Below are positions 220 to 28,860 of a stretch of 64,000 bases of DNA, one piece after another. Position 1 is the first letter of the stretch; each line of letters starts with the position of its first letter. The notes under the pieces are model-generated. The model was not told the DNA's origin and made no database searches. It saw nothing but the letters and a program-made list of their open reading frames with translations. The position numbers were made by a program, and so were the translations under genes. The DNA comes from Escherichia coli (GTDB lineage: Bacteria; Pseudomonadota; Gammaproteobacteria; Enterobacterales; Enterobacteriaceae): the NCBI RefSeq assembly GCF_029227855.1, contig NZ_CP074358.1; one strand, given 5' to 3'.

Positions 220-2445
220 TCAGTCGTCATTTTCCAGCGCTGTTTTGAGCGCTTCCTGCTCCGGAGTCAGCTCGTTGCCGGACAGCATAACCTTCAACTT
301 CTCTTCGACTGCTGGCCAGTCATCAAAGAACGGACTGACCTGGTCACGCGCAATCCGGCGATATGCCCCTCGGTGGGAGCTGAAGACACTGGTCTGTAAT
401 CGTATCAACAGGTTAACAAGGCCTTCATCAGTGGTAGTAACTTCTCTGACCCATTGCTTCACGGTTTCACCTGAACTCATGTCTCTCCAGGCGTAGAGAT
501 ACCCGAGAAGAGACTTGCGCAGGAGAAGCTGTTGCTGAAGTTCTGGTTGATTCATACGTTCCGCAAACCTGTCACGCAACCGTTCCGTAATATCGCGACT
601 GAAAAGAGCATCTGAAGGCGAAGGTACTGCATTCTGAGCAAGTCCATGTTCCCAGATAAGATCCCGCATAAAATCGGCTATCCAGAACGGCGAAGCACCC
701 GTAACGATCAGTTTTTCCATAAGCGTGATCGTTCTGGTCTCATCAATATCCTGCATATGCTTCAGCAGATGCCGTACAACCTCATTAATGGCCATTTCAC
801 GCAGGGAAAACCATGGGTTACGGATACTGAAGCGAGTGCTCACCTCATCGGTGTGCTCGAAGAAAAAATGAACCAGTCCTGCGCACTCTTCGAAATTACG
901 TTCTCTTATCAGGCCTGGAGTCAGTCTGCTCAGTATATGTTCAAACCAGGTTCCGGACAGACTGCCCACACTGTTGATTTTTGAGAGCAGCAATTCAGAA
1001 AGCTGCTGCTGTTTTTCCGATACGCCAGCCTGTTCAAAAAGCTGTCTGAAGAATTCAGGTGGCAGAACATTCTGTGGTGAGGAGAAGGCAAAATAATATC
1101 GCCAGTGCGTCAGGCTGCTGAGTCGTTTACCGGTCGTCTGGATATGACGAAAATCCTCACTGACGGGCTCAAAAAGATTCAGATATTCATCATTATGTCC
1201 ACTGATACCTGGGATCCAGTCTGCAAGTGTCAGAAACGAGTCTGCATTTGATGCCCTGAACGTCTTCATACATCTGATAAGCCCCTCCCGGAAGTCTGCT
1301 TTCTCTCCGTCAGAAAGCATACCCTGACCGGTTTCAATCACGGACCGTTCTGTCAGGTAATGCTCTGTCCAGTCATACAGAGCCGGGTTTGTCACCCGTA
1401 TAAGCTGAAGCAGGCACAAATCAGGGAAATAAACAAAATCCCGCATCCCCGGATAAAGAAAAATCAGGGAATTAATGGCCTGATGGATTTCCCGTGGCGT
1501 CGAAAGTGCGGCACCATAGGTATCAGTCACCGCGATGAGATCCCTTACCATTCCAGAGTCTGGCGGTTGATTATTAATTTGCTGATATAGAGCCTCAGCC
1601 CGCTGGCGAAATTCATTACGTAAATCAAAGGCTTCAGGTCGGGGTAATTTAAAACTAAGCTGAATGATTTTCTGGAGATAACGGCTGCCATCTTCGATAT
1701 TCAGCGCATGTTCAACGGCATGAGTGATAATCTGCCTGTCATAACAGAGAATATGGGTAAAGCGGGGCAGATCGGCTACTGCACGCACAAGCCTGAACAC
1801 TTCCGCCACCTGGGATGGCTCCAGTCGGTCCAGATCATCCATGACAACAATGAACTTCAGATCCAGACTCACCAGTTGTCCTGCAATTTCAGCCCGAAGC
1901 TTTGTCGTGGTTTTCTGATCAACAGCCAGACGGCTGTCTGAAAATACCTTTATTCCGCCTGCTATCCAGTTAATAATGCTGGAAAACTGTCCGATATATT
2001 GAACCAGTGGAAGGACGCGCGATGAAGTATCCTGAGCATACTCAATCACTTTTTGAGCTTCCGGTGACAACAGATATTTACGCCAGAGCTTTTTGAAGCC
2101 CTTCGGGGGATAGCGTATTTCCATTTCCTGCTGGATAACCGTGGCAACCGGAAGAAAGAGCGCTTCAACCGGACTGCCGCCACTCAGCCAGGGAGAAATA
2201 TGCAGCACATGTGTGTGAGCATCTTTTTTCAGGGCAAGGTTTCTCAGGATCAGATTAAGGAGGCTTGTTTTACCCGATCCCCATGCACCTTCTATTCCGA
2301 CAACATTTGAAGCCTCCAGAGGAAGAGTAAGGATGGAACGGGATATATTTTCTGCGATATTACCGAAACCGTATCGATCCTCAGGTACATCTTCAACTGC
2401 CGCATCAAGCCCTTTCTGGTTCCACAGCTGCCTCAGTATCTTCAT
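220..2445 (-). CDS. pifA: KAP-family P-loop NTPase, 741 aa; probable PifA (phage T7 exclusion / abortive infection protein of F-like plasmids)
   Basis: Walker A GAWGSGKTS near N-terminus, Walker B-like hhhhDDLDR, size typical of KAP NTPases; PifA is a founding member of the KAP family; start 1 nt after upstream gene stop (TAATATG). Confidence 0.7.
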   Translation of the reverse strand: MKILRQLWNQKGLDAAVEDVPEDRYGFGNIAENISRSILTLPLEASNVVGIEGAWGSGKTSLLNLILRNLALKKDAHTHVLHISPWLSGGSPVEALFLPVATVIQQEMEIRYPPKGFKKLWRKYLLSPEAQKVIEYAQDTSSRVLPLVQYIGQFSSIINWIAGGIKVFSDSRLAVDQKTTTKLRAEIAGQLVSLDLKFIVVMDDLDRLEPSQVAEVFRLVRAVADLPRFTHILCYDRQIITHAVEHALNIEDGSRYLQKIIQLSFKLPRPEAFDLRNEFRQRAEALYQQINNQPPDSGMVRDLIAVTDTYGAALSTPREIHQAINSLIFLYPGMRDFVYFPDLCLLQLIRVTNPALYDWTEHYLTERSVIETGQGMLSDGEKADFREGLIRCMKTFRASNADSFLTLADWIPGISGHNDEYLNLFEPVSEDFRHIQTTGKRLSSLTHWRYYFAFSSPQNVLPPEFFRQLFEQAGVSEKQQQLSELLLSKINSVGSLSGTWFEHILSRLTPGLIRERNFEECAGLVHFFFEHTDEVSTRFSIRNPWFSLREMAINEVVRHLLKHMQDIDETRTITLMEKLIVTGASPFWIADFMRDLIWEHGLAQNAVPSPSDALFSRDITERLRDRFAERMNQPELQQQLLLRKSLLGYLYAWRDMSSGETVKQWVREVTTTDEGLVNLLIRLQTSVFSSHRGAYRRIARDQVSPFFDDWPAVEEKLKVMLSGNELTPEQEALKTALENDD

Positions 2446-2446
2446 A

Positions 2447-3538
2447 TTACAGATCTCCGTACAGGCAGCGCAGCCCGGTCAGGGCCTCCGCCAGCGGGCC
2501 TTCTTGACACCGCGTGGCGAGCTCCCGGACCAGCGTCTCAAAGGCCTCCGCCGGCATAAAAATCCGCAGGCCGTCTATCCCGAAGAAGCCCTCCGGCGTG
2601 ACGTTTCCGGGCGGGGAGAACATCACTCGCTCCCCCTGGTGACCGTGCGTCAGGGCTTCCGGATGCCGGGCATACAGCGTGAACAGGCCCAGCAGTTCGG
2701 ATAACGCTTCCCAGCCGTACGGCACCACGAAGTCCTGGCCGGTGATCAGCAGGTGCAGACGGGGTGTGGTGTACCAGGCCCCCGGGCGTTCTCCGGGGTG
2801 CTGGCCGTCAACGCGGATCTCCAGGCGCAGCGTGCCGGCCTCAATGGTTTCCGTGACGGCAGAAATAACCGGGCGCAGCTCCTGTGCCAGCGTTCTTGCC
2901 TGTTCTGTGTTCCAGTCCAGGCCGCGCAGCATCAACGGGAAAACAGCTTTCAGCCGCGGCAGGGTGAAGATTTCTGCCAGCACCGCGTCCGGCACCTCCG
3001 CCAGGCCAAAACAGTCGCTCTCGAGCGGACGCAGGAGGTGTTCGGCATACATCTGATCCACCACGGGGCGCAGCGCTGCCCGGAAGGCTTCAAACTCTTC
3101 CGTCCAGTTTTTCCCGGCCAGGCGGAAAATCCCCTTCAGGTAGTGACCGTCCACAGGGCGATCGTGCTCCACCTGCCAGGCCAGCAGGTTGCCAGTGATG
3201 TCCAGCAGCGTGTCCAGGGCCGGGAGTGTGGCCAGCCTATTATGCCCGCGCAGGAAGGCCTCCCTGACGTGAACCAGGACAAAGCGCAGTTCGTCGCGGG
3301 AGAGCGCTGACGTGCCGAAGGTCTGGCCCAGAATGATATGCCGGTACAGCTGCCGGACCGTGGCCTCCGGATCGGCAATGAGCTGAAAATACCCGTCACC
3401 GGGCGCGACCGTTTTCAGGCCGTCATCGAGGAAGCGTTCGGCTAGGGCGTTGACCGAAGTATTTTCCCGACCGGCACGCGTTTTCAGCGCCTCGATAAGT
3501 TTTTTGTGAAAACGCAGGTTAAGCTGGCTTAGCATCAT
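2447..3538 (-). CDS. pifC: 363 aa protein with N-terminal ribbon-helix-helix/Arc-like motif; probable PifC (RepC) autoregulator of the pif operon
   Basis: N-terminus LNLRFHKKLIEALKTRAGRENTSVNALAERFLDDGL resembles RHH DNA-binding domain; ~40 kDa; immediately upstream of and coupled to the KAP NTPase gene. Confidence 0.55.
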   Translation of the reverse strand: MMLSQLNLRFHKKLIEALKTRAGRENTSVNALAERFLDDGLKTVAPGDGYFQLIADPEATVRQLYRHIILGQTFGTSALSRDELRFVLVHVREAFLRGHNRLATLPALDTLLDITGNLLAWQVEHDRPVDGHYLKGIFRLAGKNWTEEFEAFRAALRPVVDQMYAEHLLRPLESDCFGLAEVPDAVLAEIFTLPRLKAVFPLMLRGLDWNTEQARTLAQELRPVISAVTETIEAGTLRLEIRVDGQHPGERPGAWYTTPRLHLLITGQDFVVPYGWEALSELLGLFTLYARHPEALTHGHQGERVMFSPPGNVTPEGFFGIDGLRIFMPAEAFETLVRELATRCQEGPLAEALTGLRCLYGDL

Positions 3539-7152: not shown

Positions 7153-7428
7153 TTACGTTAGTGTTTTTAAGTATTGCTCAAGGGCTACTCTGACGATGGC
7201 ACTTACATTTTTTGGATCTTTACCATTGCGTTTATTCCTCAATGCCAGATCTTCTATTGTGACAAGCATGCTTTCACCAAGAGAGATTGTCGTCCGACAT
7301 TGTTTTTCTGGTTCGGGTTTTTCCGGCGCGCCGTATGGTTTATCCGCAAGGCGCTGAGCCAGAGCCTCTGCTTGTTCTACCGTAACTGCAGCTCTGTTTA
7401 ATGCTTGCTGGCTGGGTTTCTTCACCAT
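7153..7428 (-). CDS. Small centromere-binding protein of a type Ib partition system (ParG / small-ParB-like, 91 aa)
   Basis: Immediately downstream of and overlapping the ParA gene; RHH-like C-terminus (TTISLGESMLVTIEDLALRN...). Confidence 0.6.
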   Translation of the reverse strand: MVKKPSQQALNRAAVTVEQAEALAQRLADKPYGAPEKPEPEKQCRTTISLGESMLVTIEDLALRNKRNGKDPKNVSAIVRVALEQYLKTLT

Positions 7429-11376: not shown

Positions 11377-11621
11377 GCTGCAGGCAGCCAGCTGTCGTCC
11401 TGCCAGATTTCTTCCAGCAGAGACAGGATACGTTCTTTATCCTTGTCGTTGCGGGCTCCTGTGACAGATACAGACGGGGCGCTGCCCTGGTCAATACGCA
11501 GCCAGATTTCCGGGTAGTGTGGTTTCAGACGTTGTTCGATTTCATTCTGTAGCGCCTGAAGTGTGCCTGATTTGAGGTTTTTTGTGCTCTGGCGGTCGAA
11601 AAGAATTTCAATGCGGATCAT
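11373..11621 (-). CDS. impC: ImpC-like small protein, first gene of impCAB operon (82 aa)
   Basis: Start moved to MIRIEILFDR (ATG 11621, ggaga RBS); overlaps impA start; position and size match ImpC. Confidence 0.7.
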   Translation of the reverse strand: MIRIEILFDRQSTKNLKSGTLQALQNEIEQRLKPHYPEIWLRIDQGSAPSVSVTGARNDKDKERILSLLEEIWQDDSWLPAA

Positions 11622-11644
11622 GTTCTCATCTCCCTTTTCTTTTG

Positions 11645-11660
11645 CTGTATGTATATACAG
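11645..11660. promoter_or_regulatory. LexA (SOS) box CTGTATGTATATACAG upstream of impC
   Basis: Matches CTGT-N8-ACAG consensus, about 25 bp upstream of impC start. Confidence 0.75.
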
Positions 11661-12012
11661 TATTCTAATAACTGAATTCACACAGTCAAATGTCCTTATT
11701 GTGACTAAAAAACGCTCAGCTCTCTGAGTGTGTGCCTGTATGCCTGCTGTGGACTGCTGTGTCCAGCTTATCCACAGCATTATGCGCACGGTTCTGTGGA
11801 CAAAATACCTGGTTACCCAGGCCGTGCCGGCACGTTAACCGGGCTGCATCCGATGCAAGTGTGTCGCTGTTGCCGGCCTCCTCACCCGGTCACGTTTCGT
11901 CGTTCCTCCTCCACGCGCTGCGGCTTCGGGGCCGCACCTGCATTCGTATGCGGTCGCCCGGTTACAGGTGCGGCACGGCCTGATGGAGGCCGCATGTAAG
12001 AGGAGAATTCCC

Positions 12013-12939
12013 ATGCCAAACTGGTGCGCCAATCGTATGTATTTTTCTGCCGAACCGGCACAGATTGCTGAGATTAAACGACTGGCCAGCGGTGCCGTCA
12101 CACCGTTTTATCGCCGCGCCACAAATGAAGGTATTCAGTTGTTTCTGGCCGGAAGTGCCGGACTTCTGCAAACCACTGAAGATGTGCGGTTTGAACCATG
12201 CCCCGGACTGAGCGCTGCCGGACGTGGCGTTGTATCGACGGAAAATATTGCGTTCACCCGCTGGCTGACACTCCTGCAGGACAGTGTACTGCTGGATGAG
12301 CAAAACTGCCTGATGCTGCATGAACTCTGGCTGCAGAGCGGTACTGGACAGCGTCGCTGGGAAGGATTACCGGATGATGCCAGGGAAACCATCACTGTGC
12401 ATTTCACCGCAAAAAGAGGTGACTGGTGTGACATCTGGGGTAACGAGGATATATCGGTGTGGTGGAACCGTCTGTGTGACAACGTACTGCCGGAAAAAAC
12501 CATGCCGTTTGACCTGTTGACGGTTCTGCCGACCCGCCTGGATGTTGAAGTAAATGGCTTTAACGGTGGTGTTCTGAACGGTGTTCCTTCTGCATATCAC
12601 TGGTATACAGAACGGTATGGCGTGAAGTGGCCTTGTGGGTATGACCTGAATATCAGCAGTCAGGGAGAAAACTTCATTCAGGTTGATTTCGACACGCCGT
12701 GGTGTCAGCCGGAAAGCGACGTTATTGCAGAATTAAGCCGCCGTTTCAGCTGCACGCTGGAGCACTGGTTTGCCGAACAGGGCTGTGATTTCTGTGGCTG
12801 GCAGTTGTATGAGCGCGGAGAGCTCGTTGATGTGCTGTGGGGGGAACTGGAATGGTCTTCCCCGACAGATGACGATGAGCTGCCGGAAGTCACCGGACCT
12901 GCGTGGATAGTCGACAATGTGGCGCATTATGGCGGATGA
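12013..12939 (+). CDS. Conserved hypothetical protein (308 aa), Cys/Trp-rich, first + strand gene of the leading-region block
   Basis: ATG 12013 with aggaga RBS; followed by hairpin terminator; no catalytic motif recognised. Confidence 0.55.
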   Translation: MPNWCANRMYFSAEPAQIAEIKRLASGAVTPFYRRATNEGIQLFLAGSAGLLQTTEDVRFEPCPGLSAAGRGVVSTENIAFTRWLTLLQDSVLLDEQNCLMLHELWLQSGTGQRRWEGLPDDARETITVHFTAKRGDWCDIWGNEDISVWWNRLCDNVLPEKTMPFDLLTVLPTRLDVEVNGFNGGVLNGVPSAYHWYTERYGVKWPCGYDLNISSQGENFIQVDFDTPWCQPESDVIAELSRRFSCTLEHWFAEQGCDFCGWQLYERGELVDVLWGELEWSSPTDDDELPEVTGPAWIVDNVAHYGG

Positions 12940-12952
12940 AGTATGACGGAGA

Positions 12953-12978
12953 CGGGCGGGCAACCGCCCGTTTCTTTT
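12953..12978 (+). terminator. Rho-independent terminator-like hairpin
   Basis: cgggcggg-caac-cgcccg followed by tttctttt. Confidence 0.55.
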
Positions 12979-13323
12979 CCGGTAAAGGATGTCGCCGTGC
13001 TCCTCTTTTTACTGCGCCGGCTGACGCGGCGCGGCATAAACGCTGCCTGTGGTCAGTGTCCCGCGTCCGGTGGGTACGGGACGGGCGCTTTTACCGCTCC
13101 CGGCTGGCGTCGGTGACAGTGTACGCCAGCCTGTCGCCCTTTTCTGATGAGCGCCCTTCAAGCCGCTTTCGCGGCATAGCCTTGCCGTCAAAAAGACGAC
13201 GGCTGCGGTATTCCACGGTCGGCCTGACCCGTTACCGGACGCGGTGAACAGCCCACAGGCAGCGGGGAACGGGCACCACAGGGGTGCCCTCCCGGTGCCT
13301 TCTGTAAGAGAAGGAGTGTTGTT

Positions 13324-14007
13324 ATGTCCCGTTTTGTCCTCGGTAACTGCATCGATGTTATGGCCCGTATTCCTGATAACGCCATTGATTTCATACTGAC
13401 TGACCCGCCATATCTCGTCGGTTTCCGTGACCGTTCCGGGCGCACCATCGCCGGTGATAAAACCGACGAATGGCTGCAACCGGCCTGTAATGAAATGTAC
13501 CGCGTGCTGAAAAAAGATGCGCTGATGGTGAGCTTCTATGGCTGGAACCGCGTCGATCGCTTTATGGCCGCCTGGAAAAATGCGGGATTCAGCGTGGTTG
13601 GCCACCTGGTATTTACCAAAACCTACACATCGAAGGCCGCATATGTGGGCTATCGCCACGAATGCGCTTACATCCTGGCAAAAGGGCGTCCGGCGCTGCC
13701 TCAGAAGCCATTGCCCGACGTGCTGGGCTGGAAATATTCAGGCAACCGCCATCACCCGACGGAAAAGCCTGTTACCAGCCTGCAACCACTGATTGAGAGC
13801 TTCACACACCCGAACGCGATTGTGCTGGACCCGTTTGCAGGCAGCGGCTCAACCTGTGTGGCTGCCCTTCAGTCCAGACGCCGGTATATCGGTATCGAGC
13901 TGCTTGAACAGTATCACCGTGCCGGACAGCAACGACTGGCCGCCGTGCAACGGGCCATGCAGCAGGGGGCCGCGAATAATAACTGGTTTGAACCGGAGGC
14001 TGCGTAA
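13324..14007 (+). CDS. Orphan DNA methyltransferase (N6-adenine/N4-cytosine type, beta-class motif order)
   Basis: DPPY motif IV (ILTDPPYLVGF) precedes motif I (FAGSGSTCVAA); RBS agaaggag; no restriction endonuclease partner nearby. Confidence 0.85.
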   Translation: MSRFVLGNCIDVMARIPDNAIDFILTDPPYLVGFRDRSGRTIAGDKTDEWLQPACNEMYRVLKKDALMVSFYGWNRVDRFMAAWKNAGFSVVGHLVFTKTYTSKAAYVGYRHECAYILAKGRPALPQKPLPDVLGWKYSGNRHHPTEKPVTSLQPLIESFTHPNAIVLDPFAGSGSTCVAALQSRRRYIGIELLEQYHRAGQQRLAAVQRAMQQGAANNNWFEPEAA

Positions 14008-14229
14008 ATGAACTATGCCGGACACGAAAACCTTCGTGCTGAAGTGGCGGAGGTGGCCAATGCCATGTGTGACCTTCGGGCCAGGCTGAACGATATGGAG
14101 CATCGCTGTCGCTTTGATTCCGATGTGCTCGTTGAACGCCTGGCACGCCAGACGCTGTATCGCGCCAATCGCCTGTTCATGGAGGCATATACCGAAATTC
14201 TTGAACTGGATGCGTGCTTCAAAGATTAA
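14008..14229 (+). CDS. Small hypothetical protein (73 aa), translationally coupled to the methyltransferase
   Basis: ATG directly abuts the upstream TAA stop. Confidence 0.45.
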   Translation: MNYAGHENLRAEVAEVANAMCDLRARLNDMEHRCRFDSDVLVERLARQTLYRANRLFMEAYTEILELDACFKD

Positions 14230-14241
14230 GGGGGAGACGAA

Positions 14242-14676
14242 ATGTACGGAACATGCAAAACGCTCTGCCGGGAGCTGGCAGCAAAGTATCCGGGAGACAC
14301 GCCGCTGATGCTGCTTATCTGGTCCCCGGAAGAGATTCAGGCCCTCGCTGACGGAATGGATATTTCCCTGTCCGATCATGAAATCAGGACTGTCCTGGCG
14401 CGCCTGGAGGACATCCCGGAAGACCAGCGGACTGAATCCGGTATTTCTTCCGCCGCTGCGATGGAGATTATCAGCAACGTGAGCGAAAACCGCCAGGTGA
14501 CCGTCTCTGCTGAACTGCTGGCGTCCCTGATTCAGACTGCTGAACAGGCACTGTGGAAACGTGAATGGGCCGCCCGGGATCATGGCCTCGCCGTCCCGGA
14601 ATGCGTCACCCGCCGTCAGGCGGTGATTAATCAGGCCCGCACCCTGCTGAAAAACAACACACACGAAAACGACTGA
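14242..14676 (+). CDS. DUF1380-like leading-region protein (paralog of 16394-16816)
   Basis: Shares acidic helical pattern and RQVTV(S/P)A motif with the 16394 ORF; family assignment from memory. Confidence 0.55.
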
Positions 14677-15293
14677 TGTTATCGCCGCCTGCCCTGCGGG
14701 CGGCGATACAGGGAGAACGCTTAATCATGAACGAAAACTGCACGCTGAACGCACTGATTTGTCGTCACGCCCGCAACCTGCTGCTGGCGCAGGGCTGGCC
14801 GGAGGAGACGGATGTTGATCAGCGAGATCCACAGAACTATCCGGGCTGGATCAGCATTTACGTGCGGCTGGATGCGCCCCGGCTGGCGACGTTACTCGTC
14901 AACCGCCACGATTGCGTACTGCCGCCGGTCCTGGCTTCCGCCATGCAAAAACTGACCGGAACCGGGGCGGAGCTGGTACTGTCCGGCAGTCAGTGGCAGT
15001 CGCTGCCGGTACTTCCGGCAGACGGAACGCAGGTGTCTTTCCCGTATGCCGGCGAATGGCTGATCGAAGACGAAATCAGGGCTGTACTTGCGGCGGTGCG
15101 CGATGCGGTACGCAGTGTCAGTTGCCGGGTGGCAGAAGATGCACGGCGTATCCGGGCGGCGCTGACCACCACCGGTCAGACGTTGCTGACCCGCCAGACG
15201 CGCCGCTTTCGTCTGGTTGTGAAGGAAAGCGATTACCCCTGCTGGCTTGATGAAGATGACGAAAATCTGCCGTGGTGCTCGATGCCATTCTGA
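14676..15293 (+). CDS. Hypothetical protein (205 aa if coupled start TGATG at 14676; 188 aa if ATG 14727)
   Basis: Start overlaps upstream stop; alternative ATG at 14727 has gggaga RBS. Confidence 0.45.
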
Positions 15294-15505
15294 ACCGTGG
15301 CGCACGTTTTTCCTCTGTGGAAATGTACCTGGTCTGTGAGTGTGTGGAGCATATCCTGGCCAGTGGTCTGGTCTGTGATGTGCTGCGTATACCAGATGAA
15401 CCGTCCCGTCGCTGGTTTGACCGGGATATTCTGCGGGAGGTTGTTCTGGAGGCACGGGATGAAATCCGCAGCATGGCGGATGCACTGGCGAAAATCCGGA
15501 AATGA
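15272..15505 (+). CDS. Small hypothetical protein (77 aa, GTG start)
   Basis: Overlaps end of upstream ORF by 22 nt; followed by hairpin ggcgg-ggaaaaatct-ccgcc with T-rich tail. Confidence 0.3.
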
Positions 15506-15921
15506 TGACGCTGGCGGGGAAAAATCTCCGCCTTTTCCAGCCGGTCCTCGGACAGAGCACAAAGGAAGTCGCCGCCGGGTCCGCTTTACCCGGCCATGCA
15601 GGGCATGGCCTTGTGGTTTTTCAGTTATGTGGCCTCAGCGTCGTGTGCGGGCTGTGCCGTGCCTCCATCTTAGCCGGGCTGGCGTTGATGCAAGGGTACG
15701 CTTCGCCGCTGCGGTCACCCGGTCCCTCCTTCCCGTCTGCCGTGATTTTCCGGTCGTTCACCCGCTCAGATTTCGCGGTCTCACCCTGCAACTCCCGTCA
15801 GCCGTGTGCGTCAGGCTGCGGCTTCCCTTGCGCCCCTGCATCCCCGCCTGTTCGCCCGGCTTTTATGGAGGCACGGCACCGCCCGGTGTCGCGGAATATG
15901 TGAACAACAGAGGAAAACATC

Positions 15922-16347
15922 ATGCAATATGCGAAACCTGTCACTCTGAATGTTGAAGAGTGCGACCGTCTCTCCTTTCTGCCGTATCTGTTTGGCAACG
16001 ATTTTCTGTATGCCGAGGCGTATGTGTACGCGCTGGCGCAAAAAATGATGCCGGAATATCAGGGAGGCTTCTGGCACTTCATCCGCCTGCCGGACGGTGG
16101 CGGTTACATGATGCCGGATGGCGACCGTTTCCACATGGTGAACGGTGCAAACTGGTTTGACCGTACCGTGAGTGCTGATGCCGCAGGCATCATCCTGACC
16201 TCCCTTGTGATTAACCGCCAGTTGTGGCTGTACCACGACAGCGGGGATGCAGGACTGACCCAGCTTTACCGGATGCGCGATGCGCAGTTGTGGCGTCACA
16301 TCGAATTTCACCCCGAATGCAACGCGATTTACGCGGCTCTGGACTGA
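15922..16347 (+). CDS. klcA: Antirestriction protein, KlcA/ArdB family
   Basis: [31 protein letters not shown] and [12 protein letters not shown] match recalled KlcA/ArdB pattern; 141 aa. Confidence 0.8.
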
Positions 16348-16393
16348 TTAACGGACGGGGCGGCAATGCCGCCCCTGTAAAGGAGACGAGAAC

Positions 16394-16816
16394 ATGTACT
16401 GTACTGTTAAAGAAATTATCCGCGAAGTGCTGGATACAGACGTGCCGGACAGTGAATGCGTTTTTGCCGTAGTGCTGACCCGTGGGGATGTGCGTCACAT
16501 AGCCCAGGACTGGAGTCTGACAGACGATGAGCTGGAAACCGTCATGCAGCGGCTGGACGATGCCTTTGAATATGGTGCGGATGTCAGCGTTGTTCACGGC
16601 GTTGTTCGTGAACTGATGGAAGAAAAGCGCGCCAGCCGTCAGGTGACAGTCCCGGCGGTGATGCTGGAAAAAGTGATGGCGCTGGCAGGCAGTGAAATGA
16701 AGCGCCTGTATGCCGTCGGGAGTGAGAACGGGGGCGACGGTGACGCATTCGTCAGGGAGGAACGCGAAGCAATGGACGTTGTGTTACAGGCGCTGGACGG
16801 GGAGACGATGTCATGA
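16394..16816 (+). CDS. DUF1380-like leading-region protein (140 aa)
   Basis: Acidic protein immediately after klcA, paralogous to 14242 ORF. Confidence 0.55.
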   Translation: MYCTVKEIIREVLDTDVPDSECVFAVVLTRGDVRHIAQDWSLTDDELETVMQRLDDAFEYGADVSVVHGVVRELMEEKRASRQVTVPAVMLEKVMALAGSEMKRLYAVGSENGGDGDAFVREEREAMDVVLQALDGETMS

Positions 16817-17004
16817 ATATCAGCACAGAAACCCGCGAAATTCTGCGTAATTACAGGGCCGTGATTAATGCGCGGCGTCGTGAAATGGGGCAGAAACCGC
16901 TCACCACCGCGCAGATTGTTGATGAAATCTGCGATTTTGTGGCGAATCAGCAGGCGGTTTTCCTGGGCGGTCACTACATCTTACAGGGTAGCAGAAACAG
17001 GTGA
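16813..17004 (+). CDS. Small hypothetical protein (63 aa), coupled (ATGA overlap)
   Basis: Start overlaps stop of upstream ORF. Confidence 0.4.
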   Translation: MNISTETREILRNYRAVINARRREMGQKPLTTAQIVDEICDFVANQQAVFLGGHYILQGSRNR

Positions 17005-17169
17005 TACAGGGGCAGGCGGTGGAGGCCGCCTGTCAGTCCGCGCGAAAACCCCTGGCAGGCTGACGCCTGCCGGAAGGGAAGCGGACCACGCTGGCGCGTC
17101 GCCCGTTACCCTTCCCGTCTGTGATGTGTCTGACTCAGGAGTGTTTCTTTCTTATGTTATGGAACTGTT

Positions 17170-17625
17170 CCTGATGTTGTTGTTCCTTTATCTGCTGCTC
17201 TGATTCTGACTACTGCAGTGTTGTTCTGTCTGCCGGGCGCACCTTCGGCTCCCGGCATCCCGGCAAAAGGCCGCCGGGATGTAAGGGGCAACGCCGTTTC
17301 GCGCACGCGCTCTCCGTCGTTGCGGCGGGTCCCTGCTCATTGCCTGCCGGTGCCACACACCCGTATGAGTCCCTGTCGCCGGGGGCTGATACAGCCACAA
17401 CCTGCCGCACTGACTGTCCAGGGTAAATGAACAGCCCACAAAATTTTTTACCCAAAACCCGGTAAAAAATTTTGCGTTCTGCCCAGGACAGGTGCGTCAG
17501 GCCGTGGCAGTGATGCCCCTTGCGGCGAAGGTTCTCAAACGGGTGAAGTTCATACCACAGGGAATACAGCAGCAGGTTCCCGCGAAACGTCAAAACCGCG
17601 GCTCCCGAAACTCAACGGGTGATGT
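17170..17625. repeat. Frpo/ssi-like structured non-coding repeat, copy A (short form)
   Basis: Shares 5' block ctgattctgactactgcagtgttg...cgggcgcaccttcggctcccggc and 3' block with copies B and C; lacks ~190 bp internal block; hairpin 17437-17476. Confidence 0.6.
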
Positions 17626-17853
17626 TCTTTAAAAATCAGGATTTATTTCAGGCTCCGGCAATACGCATTTATGTGTTCTGTCAGTCATCCGGCTGGCAGG
17701 TAATGAGAACGCAGGAACAGAAGGAGGAAAACACCGGAGAACGTCAGACGCAGATATGAAAAAAGCAGGTCAGGGACCTGCTTAATCCACACCGCAGAGA
17801 CTGCACGAACAGTCTTTACGGTTTCATTAATTAACGTCATAAGAGGCTAAATT

Positions 17854-18084
17854 ATGACAGTAAGTATTGTTTCACCTTCCGCAGCGGCTGTAAAGCCCCG
17901 CCGTCATCCCCGTTGCAGACGCGAAGACATCCCCGCGCCGGAAATTGACCCCGTGCTGAAAGCCTTCGGGCGACACATTGCCCGGAGTTTTCACCGGGGG
18001 CGTGGTGTACACATCCCCGCCATGAAAAACACGGCCTTCGGGCAGGTGCTCCGCACACTCGAACTGAAACGCGCTTTTAACTGA
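17854..18084 (+). CDS. Small basic hypothetical protein (76 aa)
   Basis: First ORF after repeat copy A; RBS agagg about 10 nt upstream. Confidence 0.35.
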   Translation: MTVSIVSPSAAAVKPRRHPRCRREDIPAPEIDPVLKAFGRHIARSFHRGRGVHIPAMKNTAFGQVLRTLELKRAFN

Positions 18085-20264: not shown

Positions 20265-20965
20265 GTTACTGATGATGTTGTTGTTCCTGCTACTGCTACT
20301 GCTACTGCTACTGCTACTGCTACTGTTCTTCTTTTTCCTGCTGCTCTGATTCTGACTACTGCAGTGTTGTCCTGTCTGCCGGGCGCACCTTCGGCTCCCG
20401 GCTGCCTGGCGGCATCCGGTCGTCAGGCCCGACTCCGACAGGCAGCTGCTGGCGCACCTGCCAGTCTCCGCCGAACCCGCTGGCGCGGTTTCGGGCTGTC
20501 GCTACGGTCCGATGCGTGAAAACCCCGGGCTTGCAGCGACCGTTCCGGTCGCGCCACCCTTGTCGCGCCGTGGCCTGCGCTCCTGGCATCCCGGCAAAAG
20601 GCCGCCGGGATGTAAGGGGCAACGCCGTTTCGCAAACCGCGCTTCACGTCGTTGCGGCGGGTCCCTGCCCGTTGTTCTGTCCGGTGCCATTCACCTGTTT
20701 AAGCCCCTGTCGCCGGGGGCAAAGACAGCCACAACCGTCTCCGCCAGTCCAGGGGTGAAATGTACATCCCGCAAAACTTTTTGCCCAAAAGCAGGCAAAA
20801 ACTTTTGCGGTCTGCCCCCGGACAGTCGTTTCCGTCCGTGGCAGTGATGCCCCTTGCGGCGAAGGTTCTCAAAAAGGTGATGGTGAATACCGGAGGGAAC
20901 AAAAGGCAGGTCCCCGCAAAACGTCAAAACCGCGGCTCCCGAAACTCAAAAGATGATGGGGGCTG
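20265..20965. repeat. Frpo/ssi-like structured non-coding repeat, copy B (long form), immediately upstream of ssb
   Basis: Near-identical to copy C over ~620 bp; hairpin ccgcaaaactttttgcc-caaaagca-ggcaaaaacttttgcgg at 20769-20810. Confidence 0.6.
20287..20325. repeat. Hexanucleotide microsatellite (CTGCTA)x6.5
   Basis: Six perfect tandem ctgcta units plus ctg, at the 5' edge of repeat copy B; absent from copies A and C. Confidence 0.9.
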
Positions 20966-20991
20966 AAAACATCAACAGAAGGAGGCACATC

Positions 20992-25494: not shown

Positions 25495-25744
25495 CAACCT
25501 GGAGGCGGGCGCAGGCCCGCCTTTTCAGGACTGATGCTGGTCTGACTACTGAAGCGCCTTTATAAAGGGGCTGCTGGTTCGCCGGTAGCCCCTTTCTCCT
25601 TGCTGATGTTGTACGGGCATGAACAACCTGACTTCAGGAAGGTCGTTTCCCTTCAGGAACGGGGATGAACGCGCGCCTGCGGCGCCCGTTCTTTTCCCCC
25701 GCCTTCTCTGGTTATGGCCTGTCAGAAATCACATCACCTTCCCT

Positions 25745-26395
25745 GTGATTATTCTCTTTTTCTTCCTGCTCTGATTCTGACTACTGCAGTGTTGTCCTGT
25801 CTGCCGGGCGCACCTTCGGCTCCCGGCTGCCTGGCGGCATCCGGTCGTCAGGCCCGACTCCGACAGGCAGCTGCTGGCGCACCTGCCAGTCTCCGCCGAA
25901 CCCGCTGGCGCGGTTTCGGGCTGTCGCTACGGTCCGATGCGTGAAAACCCCGGGCTTGCAGCGACCGTTCCGGTCGCGCCGCCTCTGTCGCGCCGTGGCC
26001 TGCGCTCCTGGCATCCCGGCAAAAGGCCGCCGGGATGTAAGGGGCAACGCCGTTTCGCAAACCGCGCTTCACGTCGTTGCGGCGGGTCCCTGCCCGTTGT
26101 TCTGTCCGGTGCCATTCACCTGTTTAAGCCCCTGTCGCCGGGGGCTGATACAGCCACAACCTGCCGCACTGACTGTCCAGGGTAAATGAACAGCCCGCAA
26201 AACTTTTTGCCCAGAAGCAGGCAAAAACTTTTGCGGTCTGCCCCCGGACAGTCGTTTCCGGCCGTGGCAGTGATGCCCCATGCGGCGAAGGTTCTCAAAC
26301 AGGTGATGGTGAATACCGGAGGGAACAAAAGGCAGGTCCCCGCAAAACGTCAAAACCGCGGCTCCCGAAACTCAACAGATGATGGGGGCTGAAAA
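25745..26395. repeat. Frpo/ssi-like structured non-coding repeat, copy C (long form)
   Basis: Near-identical to copy B; hairpin 26195-26236; 3' part resembles copy A (ctgatacagccacaacctgccgcactgactgtccagggtaaatgaacagccc). Confidence 0.6.
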
Positions 26396-26416
26396 CCAGA
26401 GAGAGGAGAAAGCAGG

Positions 26417-26823: not shown

Positions 26824-27588
26824 ATGCGATTAGCTTCCCGTTTTGGTCGGTATAATTCCATCCGCCGTGAACGTCCTTTAACGGATGATGAATTAATGCA
26901 GTTCGTGCCTTCGGTATTTTCCGGTGATAAACCTGAGTCCCGGAGTGAACGTTATACGTATATTCCAACAATCAATATCATCAATAAGTTACGTGATGAA
27001 GGTTTCCAGCCATTCTTTGCCTGTCAGAGTCGGGTTCGTGATTTGGGACGTCGCGAATACAGTAAACATATGTTACGTCTTCGCAGGGAAGGGCATATTA
27101 ACGGACAGGAAGTTCCTGAAATTATCCTGCTTAATTCACATGATGGTTCATCCAGTTATCAGATGATCCCCGGAATTTTTCGTTTTGTCTGCACAAATGG
27201 CCTGGTGTGCGGAAATAATTTTGGCGAAATCCGCGTTCCACATAAAGGTGATATTGTCGGGCAGGTTATCGAGGGAGCGTATGAAGTGCTCGGTGTCTTT
27301 GATAAGGTCACTGATAATATGGAGGCGATGAAAGAAATTCATCTTAACAGTGACGAGCAACATTTATTTGGCAGAGCTGCACTGATGGTCAGGTATGAAG
27401 ATGAAAATAAAACGCCAGTGACACCTGAACAGATAATTATTCCCCGTCGTCGGGAAGACAAACAGAACGATCTCTGGACAACCTGGCAGCGGGTTCAGGA
27501 GAATATGATAAAAGGTGGATTATCGGGGCGAAGTGCCTCCGGAAAAATACCAGGACAAGAGCCATTACAGGTATTGATGGTGATATAA
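26824..27588 (+). CDS. Conserved leading-region protein (254 aa), oriT-proximal
   Basis: RBS aaaggag; no catalytic motif recognised. Confidence 0.6.
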   Translation: MRLASRFGRYNSIRRERPLTDDELMQFVPSVFSGDKPESRSERYTYIPTINIINKLRDEGFQPFFACQSRVRDLGRREYSKHMLRLRREGHINGQEVPEIILLNSHDGSSSYQMIPGIFRFVCTNGLVCGNNFGEIRVPHKGDIVGQVIEGAYEVLGVFDKVTDNMEAMKEIHLNSDEQHLFGRAALMVRYEDENKTPVTPEQIIIPRRREDKQNDLWTTWQRVQENMIKGGLSGRSASGKIPGQEPLQVLMVI

Positions 27589-27940
27589 GAATCAACAAGG
27601 CGTTATGGGTGATTGCCGAACAGTTCAGAAAGTGGAAGTCATGATAATATAAGTAAAGCCCCGAAAAAATTTTCGGGGCTTTACTTATATTATCATTTTT
27701 CGGCATTGCTGTGTCGTCTGATATACCTCAATTTCATCAACCGGCTTTCCGGTTGTCTGTAAATATTGTGCCCGCGAAAAATGGTCTGGCAGGAGGCTGC
27801 GCAGTTACCGGGTATATATAAGATGGGTTCCCGCTTCGCGGGGCTTCGGCCAGTCAGTATTGTCACTCATATGATATTTTTGTGTGTGGCCTTCCATGCC
27901 GCTTTTGCGGCATAACCGGTATCTGACAATGTCTGTAAGA

Positions 27941-28450
27941 TTAATTGTTCTGCACGCTGTTAATTTCCGGAAGTGATTTCTTCGTGGCCGGAAGCCGGAT
28001 ACCTTTACTGCTTTTTATCCCGGTATAAATCCGGTAAACATCTGATGCGTAGGCAAGACGTCTCTGGTTCTGGCGTTCGGTTTTCCTGAATCCGGCATTG
28101 TATGCACCAACGGCCTCCCAGGTGACGCCCCATTTTTTAAATGCTATTGCCAGATAATAAGCACCGGTATAAATGTTCATGCAGGGATCTGTTGTCAGAT
28201 GTTCTGGCTTAATTCCGTAGCGGGCCAGTTCGTTAAAATGCTGGGAATCTACCTGCATCAGTCCGCTGCCATATCCCGTTACCGGATTAATACCGATGGC
28301 ATTAACCCGGTAACGGGATTCTTGCCATGATATTGCTCTCAGTAAATCAGGATCTATTTTGTAATCCCGGCCTGCAAGATCAAAGCAATCAGTGGCCTGG
28401 CAGATCTCATTTATAAACATCAGGCAGATGGCTAACATCCATTTTTTCAT
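27941..28450 (-). CDS. Lytic transglycosylase (F plasmid gene X / orf169 / P19 family), 169 aa
   Basis: Signal peptide [19 protein letters not shown]; SLT motifs ISWQESRY and GLMQV; start moved to MKKW (ATG 28450). Confidence 0.85.
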
Positions 28451-28499
28451 TTTTCCACCTCTGGTGACTTTATCCGTAAATAATTTAACCCACTCCACA

Positions 28500-28860
28500 A
28501 AAAGGCTCAACAGGTTGGTGGTTCTCACCACCAAAAGCACCACACCCCACGCAAAAACAAGTTTTTGCTGATTTTTCTTTATAAATAGAGAGTTATGAAA
28601 AATTAGTTTCTCTTACTCTCTTTATGATATTTAAAAAAGCGGTGTCGGCGCGGCTACAACAACGCGCCGACACCGCTTTGTAGGGGTGGTGCTGACTATT
28701 TTTATAAAAAACATTATTTTATATTAGGGGTGCTGCTAGCGGCGCGGTGTGTTTTTTTATAGGATACCGCTAGGGGCGCTGCTAGCGGTGCGTCCCTGTT
28801 TGCATTATGAATTTTAGTGTTTCGAAATTAACTTTATTTTATGTTCAAAAAAGGTAATCT
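28500..28860. other. oriT: Origin of transfer (oriT) with F-type nic region and inverted/direct repeats
   Basis: Bottom strand carries ttgcgtggggtgtggtgcttttggtggtgagaacc (F-like nic sequence, nick near 28540/28541); 14-bp inverted repeat gcggtgtcggcgcg/cgcgccgacaccgc at 28639-28676; direct repeats gctgctagcgg(c/t)gcg. Confidence 0.75.

What the first reader, a model, noticed from the sequence alone, without database searches (positions are those of the whole stretch)
15540..15920. ~380 bp GC-rich untranslated region upstream of klcA with local hairpins: a possible fourth, divergent ssDNA-structured element
After the terminator-like hairpin at ~15515-15540 there is a long non-coding, GC-rich stretch with inverted repeats (for example ggccatgc-aggg-catggcc). 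No convincing ORF with an RBS is present. It does not align by eye with copies A-C, but it occupies the same position relative to a downstream gene (klcA). A second GC-rich gap at 12980-13320 precedes the methyltransferase.
Basis: seen in the sequence. Interest (0 to 1): 0.4.

Follow-up and report, generated by a model that had tools for sequence, protein, structure and literature searches.

The report
Known single-stranded-DNA promoter upstream of klcA

Summary
Window 15506-15921 is a non-coding, 60-67% GC gap between a frameshifted yffB homologue and klcA, in the leading region of an IncF plasmid.

On the transferred (minus) strand it folds into a 238-nt stem-loop, 15648-15885 (-70.5 kcal/mol, z = -7.2).

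The arm that serves as the non-template strand carries TTGCAT-15 nt-TAAGAT. The -10 hexamer sits on a 3x3 mismatch bubble and points toward klcA.

The region is 95% identical to the pESBL sequences 5' of klcA and ardA, and 94% identical to the F sequence between yffB and yfgB. Those are the published "class 2" ssDNA promoter (Wen et al., NAR 2025; 5' RACE), "ssp2" (a replication roadblock resolved by UvrD; 2026 preprint) and "Frpo3". It has no detectable sequence similarity to the three Frpo-type copies in the window.

The second gap, 12940-13323, is 98% identical to the pESBL sequence immediately 5' of M.EcoGIX, most likely the published class 3 promoter.

Verdict: interpretation supported; the element is already known; interest is low.

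One side lead: a shorter hairpin with a class-2-like core lies upstream of the DUF1281 gene (11807-11990). I could not find it among the published promoters.

The parts
15513..15538 (+). Hairpin GGCGGGGA-AAAA-TCTCCGCC followed by TTTTCC, just after the stop of the upstream (yffB-like) ORF. Terminator-like. Not part of the repeated module.
   Evidence: Plus-strand fold. Sequence read. Absent from the pESBL ardA copy. Not listed by the terminator scan because the tail has only 4 T.
15562..15903 (+). Conserved class 2 module. This is the unit shared at about 96% identity with both the klcA and ardA upstream regions of pESBL. It contains the terminator-like hairpin, the big stem-loop and most of the 5' UTR.
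   Evidence: blastn: 15560-15910 against L002:13958-14300, 95.6% over 343 nt. Alignment A1.
15592..15620 (+). Intrinsic-terminator-like site: GGCCATGC-AGG-GCATGGCC then TTGTGGTTTTT. Probably ends transcripts coming from the upstream operon before the promoter hairpin (inferred).
   Evidence: Terminator scan hit with 8 pairs, 6 of them G-C, and a 3-nt loop. Inverted repeat I13. Conserved in all 7 aligned homologues.
15648..15885 (-). The ssDNA-promoter stem-loop on the transferred strand, 238 nt and 67% GC. From base to tip: a 5+15-bp almost perfect basal stem, the -10 bubble, an 8-bp stem, an irregular spacer, the -35 helix, then a 108-nt branched apical domain.
   Evidence: Folds (z -7.17). 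The same architecture appears in 12 homologues. The T strand is more stable than its complement in all 12.
15688..15693 (-). -35-like hexamer TTGCAT on the non-template (3') arm of the hairpin. It pairs with the template arm ATGCAG, including one G:T wobble.
   Evidence: Pair table. Hairpin drawings. Assigning this hexamer as the -35 is my inference.
15667..15672 (-). -10-like hexamer TAAGAT on the non-template arm, 15 nt from the -35-like hexamer. The A at position 2 and T at position 6 are retained. The central three bases face AAA on the template arm and are unpaired.
   Evidence: Pair table. The hexamer is TAAGAT or TACGAT in all 12 homologues.
15861..15866 (+). Template-arm side of the -10 region. 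It reads TTTTAT on the plus strand. In duplex DNA the corresponding pair of hexamers is CTGCAT-19 nt-TTTTAT, a poor promoter.
   Evidence: Sequence. No sigma-70-like site was found anywhere in 12800-16500 on either strand.
15873..15921 (+). Predicted 5' UTR of klcA. The start site is predicted at about A15873 (+/- 3), 7 nt past the -10. GAGG at 15910-15913 lies 8 nt before the ATG.
   Evidence: Inferred from the geometry of the hexamers. 5' RACE was done on the pESBL homologue, not on this plasmid, and the mapped position is in a supplement I could not read.
15922..16347 (+). klcA / ardB-type anti-restriction gene, the first gene driven by the element.
   Evidence: Pfam PF03230 Antirestrict, E 1.9e-26. 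98% identical to F YfgB.
16394..17004 (+). Probable rest of the operon: a DUF1380-family gene (16394-16816) and a 63-aa ORF (16813-17004). It ends just before Frpo-type copy A.
   Evidence: ORF list. The same gene order is annotated in pESBL and F. Copy A begins at about 17164.
12940..13323 (-). A strongly folded T-strand element immediately 5' of the methyltransferase, probably the published class 3 / ssp3 ssDNA promoter.
   Evidence: -109.7 kcal/mol, z -7.75. 98.4% identical to pESBL L002:4399-4782 and 95.3% to F. The methyltransferase is confirmed by NF010253. Equating it with 'class 3' is an inference from the paper's wording '5' of M.EcoGIX'.

Best explanation
Window 15648-15885 is a class 2 single-stranded-DNA promoter (ssp2 / Frpo3), here serving klcA.

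Proposed mechanism:
1. During conjugation the minus strand of the window enters the recipient 5' end first from the nick at 28.5 kb. klcA therefore arrives just before its promoter.
2. While that strand is still single, the inverted repeat snaps back into a 238-nt hairpin.
3. The lower stem imitates duplex promoter DNA. The 3' arm supplies the non-template strand (TTGCAT, 15 nt, TAAGAT). The 5' arm is the template.
4. The middle of the -10 hexamer is already unpaired, which should ease open-complex formation.
5. Host sigma-70 RNA polymerase starts at about 15873, unwinds the 21-bp basal stem and runs out of the hairpin into klcA, the DUF1380 gene and a small ORF.
6. Once the complementary strand is made, the hairpin is erased. 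The duplex reads CTGCAT-19-TTTTAT, and the promoter goes silent.

By homology with F ssp2, the same hairpin also stalls the polymerase that makes the complementary strand. That polymerase arrives from the low-coordinate side, so the stall is expected at about 15647. UvrD later removes the block, and the delay prolongs the single-stranded, transcribing state of everything between the hairpin and oriT.

Shown here: sequence identity, strand assignment, structure, hexamers, absence of coding potential and absence of a duplex promoter. Taken from the literature on near-identical sequences: start site, zygotic induction, roadblock and UvrD dependence. Inferred: the exact hexamer assignment, the start site and the stall position in this plasmid.
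For: Which strand is transferred:
- The F-type nick sequence GTGGGGTGTGGTGCTTT (recalled from memory) occurs once, exactly, on the minus strand at 28534-28550.
- traJ/FinP lie at 29.3 kb.
- The minus strand is therefore the transferred strand and the template for the plus-strand leading genes.

Structure:
- Hairpin z -7.17. The whole gap gives z -3.97.
- All 12 homologues from IncFII, IncFIA, F, IncI1, IncK2/Z, IncI-gamma/K1 and IncFIB plasmids fold to the same architecture, at -70 to -82 kcal/mol.
- In all 12 the T strand is 3.7-11.4 kcal/mol more stable than its complement, as it is for the Frpo copies.

Natural variation:
- A second allele, present in at least 1,090 PLSDB records at 99% identity or more, replaces the spacer and the -10 surroundings on both arms but keeps them paired.
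- It keeps TTGCAw and TAnGAT. This is two-sided change that preserves the helix.

Identity to characterised elements:
- 95.2% to pESBL 5' of klcA, 95.6% to pESBL 5' of ardA, 93.8% to F.
- The primers used to map ssp2 in F lie at L003:7084-7103 and 7175-7197, directly upstream of the homologous F segment.

Literature:
- Class 2 promoters with 5' RACE start sites, early induction, and longer induction in a uvrD mutant (PMC12672017).
- ssp2 roadblock and the effect of its deletion on yfgB-dependent anti-restriction.
- Frpo3.

Negative controls:
- No duplex sigma-70 promoter in 12800-16500.
- No Rfam family.
- No conserved ORF.
Against: - Nothing was measured on this plasmid. Function rests on 94-95% identity to the tested sequences.
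- The hexamer spacing is odd: 15 nt on the non-template arm in this allele, 20 in the second allele, and 15 on both arms with no bulge in a third, apparently recombinant allele (L007). My -35 assignment may therefore be wrong, or the -35 may matter little next to a pre-melted -10.
- I could not read the supplementary figure that shows the boxes and start site assigned by the authors.
- Folding alone does not separate the strands sharply; the plus strand still gives z -6.0.
- A coarse sliding scan of the T strand (240-nt windows, step 60, 15 shuffles) did not flag this hairpin because no window contained it whole. It also gave many z <= -3.5 windows elsewhere, 50 of 334, so that scan is not discriminating.
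Confidence: 0.9

Rival explanations
1. The hairpin's selected role is mainly structural. It is a programmed roadblock to complementary-strand synthesis, or a priming (ssi) site, and promoter activity is secondary.
For: - In F, deleting ssp2 speeds conversion of downstream loci (94 s against 162 s).
- The stalled 3' end maps to the end of the stem, and rifampicin does not remove the delay.
- The basal stem here is 20 of 21 bp paired and GC-rich on the side the polymerase meets first.
- Frpo-type transcripts are known to prime DNA synthesis.
Against: - The two roles are not exclusive. The same papers show that the element drives yfgB/klcA expression.
- Replacing ssp2 with ssp3 rescues transfer against a type II restriction system, so promoter activity is needed in its own right.
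- Early, rifampicin-sensitive conversion events are rare just downstream of ssp2 (about 4%, against 24-48% after ssp1 promoters). This argues against a priming role.
- TAnGAT and TTGCAw are conserved across alleles whose spacers differ. A pure roadblock would not need them.
Confidence: 0.25
2. It is a diverged fourth copy of the Frpo / ssi (class 1) repeat family represented by copies A-C in the window.
For: - Same position relative to a downstream leading-region gene.
- Same strand logic.
- Similar composition profile: GC-rich, with negative AT skew in the upstream half.
- Same kind of long T-strand hairpin.
Against: - No blastn match above chance to 17164-17636, 20310-20970 or 25735-26396 at word size 7.
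- Local-alignment scores against the three Frpo hairpins are within shuffle range (z 2.9, -0.3, -0.7), whereas the same test detects the DUF1281-upstream hairpin at z 9.6.
- The authors who defined the classes also report no homology.
Confidence: 0.04
3. The region acts at the RNA level. It would be a long structured leader, attenuator or terminator for transcripts reading through from a duplex promoter further upstream.
For: - A good intrinsic-terminator-like hairpin lies at 15592-15620, and another hairpin with a T run at 15513-15538.
- The plus-strand sequence also folds well.
Against: - The terminator-like sites lie upstream of the big hairpin and would stop read-through before it. That fits a separate transcription unit.
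- No duplex promoter candidate exists in 12800-16500.
- 5' RACE on the near-identical pESBL element is reported to match the prediction for the ssDNA promoter.
- No Rfam cis-regulatory family matches.
Confidence: 0.05
4. It encodes a small GC-rich protein (ORF 15502-15903, 133 aa), or it is the remnant of a mobile element with terminal inverted repeats.
For: - The ORF exists with an ATG, and some deposited annotations place a 'hypothetical protein' under the match.
- The 32-nt inverted repeat and the presence of two copies per IncI plasmid resemble a small mobile element.
Against: - The reading frames are not conserved. Indels of 1, 2, 4 and 12 nt separate close homologues, and the long frames collapse to 63-79 aa in three of them.
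- Two overlapping open frames on one strand are expected at 65% GC.
- The duplicated unit extends about 85 nt beyond the inverted repeat on one side and into the 5' UTR on the other, with no matching ends.
Confidence: 0.02

Closest known systems
Class 2 ssDNA promoter = ssp2 = Frpo3. These are the pESBL promoters of klcA and ardA, and the F plasmid promoter of yfgB/ardB. Sources: Wen et al. NAR 2025, PMC12672017; bioRxiv 10.64898/2026.01.09.698686; bioRxiv 10.1101/2025.04.03.647016.
   Same: - 94-96% nucleotide identity over the whole 343-416 nt.
- Same flanking genes, yffB-like upstream and klcA/ardB downstream.
- Same T-strand hairpin architecture.
- Same leading-region position and orientation.
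   Different: - The host replicon differs: this is an IncFII-type plasmid with CopA and FinP RNAs.
- A few substitutions leave two A/G mismatches in the spacer helix that are paired in F.
- The upstream yffB homologue carries a frameshift here.
- None of these touches the hexamers or the basal stem.
Class 1 ssDNA promoters: Frpo1 and Frpo2 of F, and ssi1-3 of ColIb-P9 (Masai and Arai 1997; Bates 1999; Couturier 2023, PMC9849209). In this window they are copies A-C, with hairpins at 17325-17583, 20627-20945 and 26053-26370.
   Same: - Works the same way: a long imperfect hairpin on the transferred strand that rebuilds a sigma-70 promoter pointing at plus-strand leading genes, active only before complementary-strand synthesis.
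- The T strand is more stable than its complement.
   Different: - No detectable sequence similarity.
- The class 2 hairpin is shorter (238 nt against 259-319 nt) and more GC-rich, with a near-perfect basal stem.
- Class 1 promoters are reported to be stronger and to prime complementary-strand synthesis, while ssp2 blocks it.
Class 3 ssDNA promoter / ssp3, the promoter of the M.EcoGIX ssDNA methyltransferase.
   Same: - Same plasmid region, strand and logic.
- Present in this window at 12940-13323 with 98.4% identity to pESBL.
- Reported to have a strength similar to ssp2.
   Different: - Sequence unrelated or barely related (local alignment z 2.8, 6 of 300 shuffles reach it).
- Branched fold with two inner hairpins.
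- Reported to lack roadblock activity.
Hairpin upstream of the DUF1281 gene in the same leading regions (window 11807-11990). I did not find it named in the papers I could read.
   Same: - Shares the class 2 promoter core. TTGCAT-15-TAACGT compares with TTGCAT-15-TAAGAT, followed in both by GGCACGGC.
- It has an internal loop inside the -10 and an apical GACCGGGTGA motif.
- Same strand and orientation, 23 nt upstream of an ATG with a GAGGAG ribosome-binding site.
   Different: - Only 184 nt, with a much smaller apical domain.
- About 73% identity over 74 nt only.
- The T-strand advantage in folding energy is small (1.6 kcal/mol).
- There is no experimental evidence that I know of.

Membership tests
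Class 2 ssDNA promoter (ssp2 / Frpo3) | Sequence homology to the reference elements: pESBL 5' of klcA and ardA, and F between yffB and yfgB. | tested here: met
   95.2%, 95.6% and 93.8% identity over 343-418 nt. The published ssp2 mapping primers lie directly upstream of the F homologue.
Class 2 ssDNA promoter (ssp2 / Frpo3) | Lies in the leading region, on the transferred strand, upstream of and co-oriented with an anti-restriction gene. | tested here: met
   The nick motif is on the minus strand at 28534-28550. klcA is on the plus strand at 15922, PF03230.
Class 2 ssDNA promoter (ssp2 / Frpo3) | The transferred strand folds into one large, stable stem-loop. | tested here: met
   -70.5 kcal/mol, z -7.17. 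The same fold appears in 12 homologues. The T strand is favoured over its complement in all of them.
Class 2 ssDNA promoter (ssp2 / Frpo3) | The stem rebuilds -35 and -10 boxes oriented toward the gene. | tested here: inconclusive
   TTGCAT and TAAGAT are on the correct arm and in the correct orientation, with a bubble in the -10. The spacing is 15 nt (20 nt, or 15 on both arms, in other alleles), and I could not see the authors' own assignment.
Class 2 ssDNA promoter (ssp2 / Frpo3) | Transcription start inside the hairpin, and strong transient induction in new transconjugants. | not testable with these tools
   Reported for pESBL and F. No expression data exist for this plasmid.
Class 2 ssDNA promoter (ssp2 / Frpo3) | Inactive once the DNA is double-stranded. 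| not testable with these tools
   Indirect only. No sigma-70-like site was found in duplex form in 12800-16500. The duplex reads CTGCAT-19-TTTTAT.
Class 2 ssDNA promoter (ssp2 / Frpo3) | Stalls complementary-strand synthesis at the base of the stem, with the stall relieved by UvrD. | not testable with these tools
   Shown for F ssp2. Here only the near-perfect GC-rich basal stem can be seen.
Class 1 Frpo / ssi family | Sequence similarity to Frpo1/2 or ssi1-3, which is the criterion used to detect family members (BLAST, E < 1e-6, in PMC11541004). | tested here: not met
   No match to the three Frpo-type copies in the window. Alignment scores are within shuffle range.
Class 1 Frpo / ssi family | A hairpin on the transferred strand carrying promoter hexamers and pointing at leading genes. 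| tested here: met
   This shows it works like an Frpo, not that it belongs to that sequence family.
Rho-independent terminator (15592-15620 only) | A GC-rich stem of at least 5 bp, a short loop, and a T-rich tail on the sense strand. | tested here: met
   8-bp stem with 6 G-C pairs, a 3-nt loop and the tail TTGTGGTTTT. Whether it actually terminates was not tested.

The most novel reading that the evidence does not exclude
Two things in my data are not in the papers I could read.

(1) A seventh candidate ssDNA promoter.
- It is a compact 184-nt T-strand hairpin at 11807-11990, immediately upstream of the DUF1281 gene.
- Its core is significantly similar to class 2: TTGCAT-15-TAACGT with a bubble in the -10, and a local alignment score with z 9.6.
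- It is conserved in pESBL, F and an IncK2/Z plasmid.
- It would be the oriT-distal boundary promoter of the zygotically induced block.

(2) The class 2 promoter circulates as at least three alleles.
- They differ in which arm carries the 4-5-nt spacer bulge and in how far the -10 is pre-melted.
- This could tune promoter strength or roadblock strength between plasmid lineages.
Probability: 0.3. Interest if true: 0.4.

Novelty: already known. Interest (0 to 1): 0.18.

Why it matters
The element lets the plasmid express an anti-restriction protein within seconds of entering a new host, before it has a second DNA strand. By stalling second-strand synthesis it also lengthens that window for every gene between it and oriT. 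It is therefore part of the machinery that lets resistance plasmids of the IncF and IncI groups establish in restriction-proficient strains. It is present in well over 5,000 sequenced plasmids.

For the scan, the result is mainly a validation. A tool-free reader picked out, from sequence alone, an element that three groups published only in 2025-2026. For annotation, the 'hypothetical protein' calls laid over this region, and over the class 3 region, in many records are almost certainly spurious.

Tried and rejected
- **Rfam.** The gathering-threshold search of the whole window and the E-value search of 11600-16400 found nothing in the region; the only hits were two noise-level matches elsewhere.
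- **Similarity to Frpo copies A-C.** blastn at word size 7 and Smith-Waterman with shuffles found none. I therefore dropped the 'diverged copy' reading.
- **Coding potential.** Long open frames exist but are not conserved.
- **Duplex promoter scan.** Zero sites.
- **Sliding T-strand fold scan** (240 nt, step 60, 15 shuffles). It was meant to show the element as a local peak. It failed because no window held the 238-nt hairpin whole, and the background was noisy (15% of windows at z <= -3.5). I rely on the direct fold instead.
- **Supplement of PMC12672017.** I tried to read it for the authors' -35, -10 and +1 assignments; it is not held. No preprint version was found.
- **Bulge idea.** I considered that a spacer bulge compensates for the short 15-nt spacing. 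One natural allele (L007) has 15 nt on both arms and no bulge, so I do not press this.
- **NCBIfam.** It has no model for KlcA, the DUF1380 protein or the DUF1281 protein. Pfam was used for KlcA.
- **The count of structure pairs.** Not run. MAFFT misaligns the non-template arm across the allele boundary, which would have produced false broken pairs. I compared per-sequence folds instead.
- **Scans of genome contigs and metagenome contigs.** Not spent. The element's identity was already settled, and more distant relatives would not change the verdict.
Full report
**Setting**

The window is an IncF-type conjugative plasmid.
- Rfam finds the traJ leader and FinP at 29.3 kb, CopA at 62.8 kb, two hok/sok loci, and the antisense RNAs described for pHK01.
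- The F-type nick sequence GTGGGGTGTGGTGCTTT (recalled from my own knowledge of F/R100 oriT) occurs once, exactly, on the minus strand at 28534-28550.
- The strand carrying that motif is transferred 5' to 3' starting at the nick. The minus strand is therefore the transferred (T) strand, and the DNA at lower coordinates is the leading region.
- All leading genes around the finding are on the plus strand, so the T strand is their template.
On the T strand they fold into 259-319-nt hairpins. They are Frpo / ssi-type (class 1) ssDNA promoters.

**The observation**

The gap runs from the stop of the last upstream ORF (15505) to the klcA ATG (15922).
- GC is 0.60-0.65 with negative GC and AT skew, the same signature as the upstream halves of copies A-C.
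- The main feature is a 32-nt inverted repeat, 15648-15679 / 15854-15885, that closes a 238-nt stem-loop.
- As single-stranded DNA the minus strand of 15645-15888 folds at -70.5 kcal/mol, against -47.7 +/- 3.2 for shuffles (z -7.17, 0 of 200). The plus strand gives -62.5 kcal/mol (z -6.02).

**Not coding, not a known RNA, no duplex promoter**

- A 133-aa ATG ORF and another long open frame cross the gap. Close homologues differ by indels of 1, 2, 4 and 12 nt, and in three plasmid types the longest frames shrink to 63-79 aa.
- No Rfam family matches.
- A sigma-70 consensus scan finds no site on either strand anywhere in 12800-16500.

**Anatomy of the hairpin**

Reading the T strand 5' to 3', the 5' arm (15885 down to about 15818) is the template and the 3' arm (about 15709 down to 15648) is the non-template strand. 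From the base upward:
1. A 5-bp plus 15-bp stem with a single mismatch.
2. A 3x3 internal loop.
3. An 8-bp stem.
4. An irregular stretch with four to five extra bases on the template arm.
5. A 10-bp helix.
6. Two short helices.
7. A 108-nt branched apical domain.

The non-template arm reads TTGCAT (15693..15688), then 15 nt, then TAAGAT (15672..15667). The internal loop falls on the three central bases of TAAGAT, while its A at position 2 and T at position 6 are kept.

This promoter points toward the base of the stem, and so toward klcA. A start 7 nt past the hexamer would be A15873. That gives a 49-nt leader with GAGG 8 nt before the ATG.

In duplex form the same place reads CTGCAT-19-TTTTAT. 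The hexamer and start-site assignments are my inference.

**Identity with published elements**

The hits come from Escherichia, Klebsiella, Salmonella and Shigella, and klcA is annotated as 'antirestriction protein'.

I fetched pESBL-EA11 (NC_018659.1) and F (NC_002483.1). The gap is:
- 95.2% identical to the pESBL sequence 5' of klcA;
- 95.6% identical over 343 nt to the pESBL sequence 5' of ardA;
- 93.8% identical to the F sequence between yffB and yfgB.

KlcA here is 98% identical to F YfgB and carries Pfam PF03230.

Three reports cover these sequences.
- **Wen et al. (PMC12672017).** They removed donor cells and sequenced RNA from early transconjugants. They found six induced operons in pESBL and predicted a large hairpin upstream of each. 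They mapped all six starts by 5' RACE. They named the klcA and ardA promoters 'class 2' and the M.EcoGIX promoter 'class 3', both conserved in F and both without homology to Frpo.
- **A 2026 preprint (10.64898/2026.01.09.698686).** It renames the F element ssp2. It shows that complementary-strand synthesis stalls at the end of the stem, that deleting ssp2 removes the delay, that UvrD resolves it, and that the delay roughly doubles expression from a downstream ssDNA promoter. It also shows that ssp2 is needed against restriction systems. Its mapping primers match F at L003:7084-7103 and 7175-7197, directly upstream of the segment homologous to the finding.
- **A third group (10.1101/2025.04.03.647016).** They found the same F element from codon-usage patterns and called it Frpo3.

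The element is therefore already known.

**Is it a diverged Frpo?**

No, by sequence.
- blastn at word size 7 finds only chance matches to copies A-C.
- Local-alignment scores against their hairpins give z 2.9, -0.3 and -0.7.

It works like an Frpo but is a separate family, as the published classification says.

**Natural variation as a test of structure**

I compared twelve homologues from seven replicon types.
- All fold to the same architecture at -70 to -82 kcal/mol.
- In all twelve the T strand is 3.7-11.4 kcal/mol more stable than its complement. The Frpo copies show the same bias, at 6.6-15.9 kcal/mol.
- A second allele is present in at least 1,090 records at 99% identity or more. It rewrites the spacer and the -10 surroundings on both arms yet keeps them paired. 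Its non-template arm reads TTGCAA-20-TACGAT, and the extra bases now sit on the non-template arm.
- A third allele (L007) looks like a recombinant of the two. It has 15 nt on both arms, no bulge, and a nearly fully paired TAAGAT.

These two-sided replacements that preserve pairing support selection for the hairpin. The variable spacing means the -35 assignment should be treated with caution.

**The module around the hairpin**

The unit shared by the klcA and ardA copies is 15562-15903. Upstream of the stem-loop it contains a conserved hairpin, GGCCATGC-AGG-GCATGGCC, followed by TTGTGGTTTTT. The scan tool lists this as terminator-like.

I infer that the module is terminator plus ssDNA promoter plus leader, and that this keeps the induced operons separate. 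That step is not tested.

**The second gap**

Window 12940-13323 folds at -109.7 kcal/mol (z -7.75). It is 98.4% identical to the pESBL sequence immediately 5' of M.EcoGIX and 95.3% identical to F. The downstream gene is a PRK13699-type methyltransferase.

It is most likely the published class 3 / ssp3 promoter. That equation rests on the paper's phrase '5' of M.EcoGIX'.

**A side lead**

blastn gave a weak match between the non-template arm of the class 2 hairpin and 11821-11891.
- That region folds on the T strand into a 184-nt hairpin, 11807-11990 (z -4.88 for 11700-11990).
- Its non-template arm reads TTGCAT-15-TAACGT with a 2x3 loop inside the -10. It ends 23 nt before the ATG of the DUF1281 gene, which has a GAGGAG ribosome-binding site.
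- Its local-alignment score against the class 2 hairpin is 43, against 19.1 +/- 2.5 for shuffles (0 of 300).
- It is almost invariant in pESBL, F and an IncK2/Z plasmid.

The six published pESBL promoters are three of class 1, two of class 2 and one of class 3, so this may be an unreported relative. Alternatively, it may itself be the published 'M.EcoGIX' promoter, if that operon starts at the DUF1281 gene. I could not decide between these without the paper's figures.

**Verdict**

The element is the class 2 / ssp2 / Frpo3 ssDNA promoter of klcA, already characterised in near-identical form in pESBL and F. Interest is low. The residual novelty lies in the DUF1281-upstream hairpin and in the allelic architectures of the promoter stem.

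Noticed in passing
window 11807-11990 (minus strand), upstream of the DUF1281 gene (ATG at 12013): A 184-nt T-strand hairpin whose non-template arm reads TTGCAT-15-TAACGT, with an internal loop in the -10. It is significantly similar to the class 2 promoter core (score 43 against 19.1 +/- 2.5 for shuffles) and conserved in pESBL, F and an IncK2/Z plasmid. It is a possible additional ssDNA promoter that I did not find in the published set.
   Followed up: partly
It is 98.4% identical to the pESBL sequence 5' of the M.EcoGIX methyltransferase, so it is probably the class 3 / ssp3 ssDNA promoter. Many records annotate a 'hypothetical protein' over it.
   Followed up: partly
window 14676-15505 (plus strand), frameshift near 15270: The yffB homologue is split into two ORFs (14676-15293 and 15272-15505) by a 1-nt deletion relative to F and pESBL, where it is a single 258-aa gene. 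This is either a pseudogene or a sequencing error.
   Followed up: yes
class 2 homologues L004, L005, L009 (type II) and L007 (type III), against the window (type I): The class 2 promoter stem exists in at least three alleles. They differ in spacer sequence, in which arm carries the 4-5-nt bulge, and in how much of the -10 is unpaired. The type II allele is in at least 1,090 PLSDB records.
   Followed up: partly
window 16357-16375 (plus strand): A perfect 8-bp GC hairpin, GGGGCGGC-AAT-GCCGCCCC, lies between klcA and the DUF1380 gene, with no T run after it. It may be an intercistronic RNA stabiliser or processing site.
   Followed up: no
window 27480-27840 and 28440-28800 (minus strand): Two AT-rich stretches near oriT fold far better than shuffles on the T strand (z down to -9.4 and -9.3 in 240-nt windows). 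The second contains the nick site; the first is unexplained.
   Followed up: no
window 17760-17859 (minus strand): The Rfam AS-pc01 antisense RNA (described for pHK01) lies directly downstream of Frpo-type copy A, antisense to the transcript that copy A would start.
   Followed up: no
L005 (NZ_CP033633.1, IncK2/Z), locus 1483-3216: In this plasmid the DUF1281 gene is followed directly by the class 2 element and klcA. The methyltransferase block and the class 3 element are absent. This suggests that promoter-gene modules are gained and lost as units.
   Followed up: no
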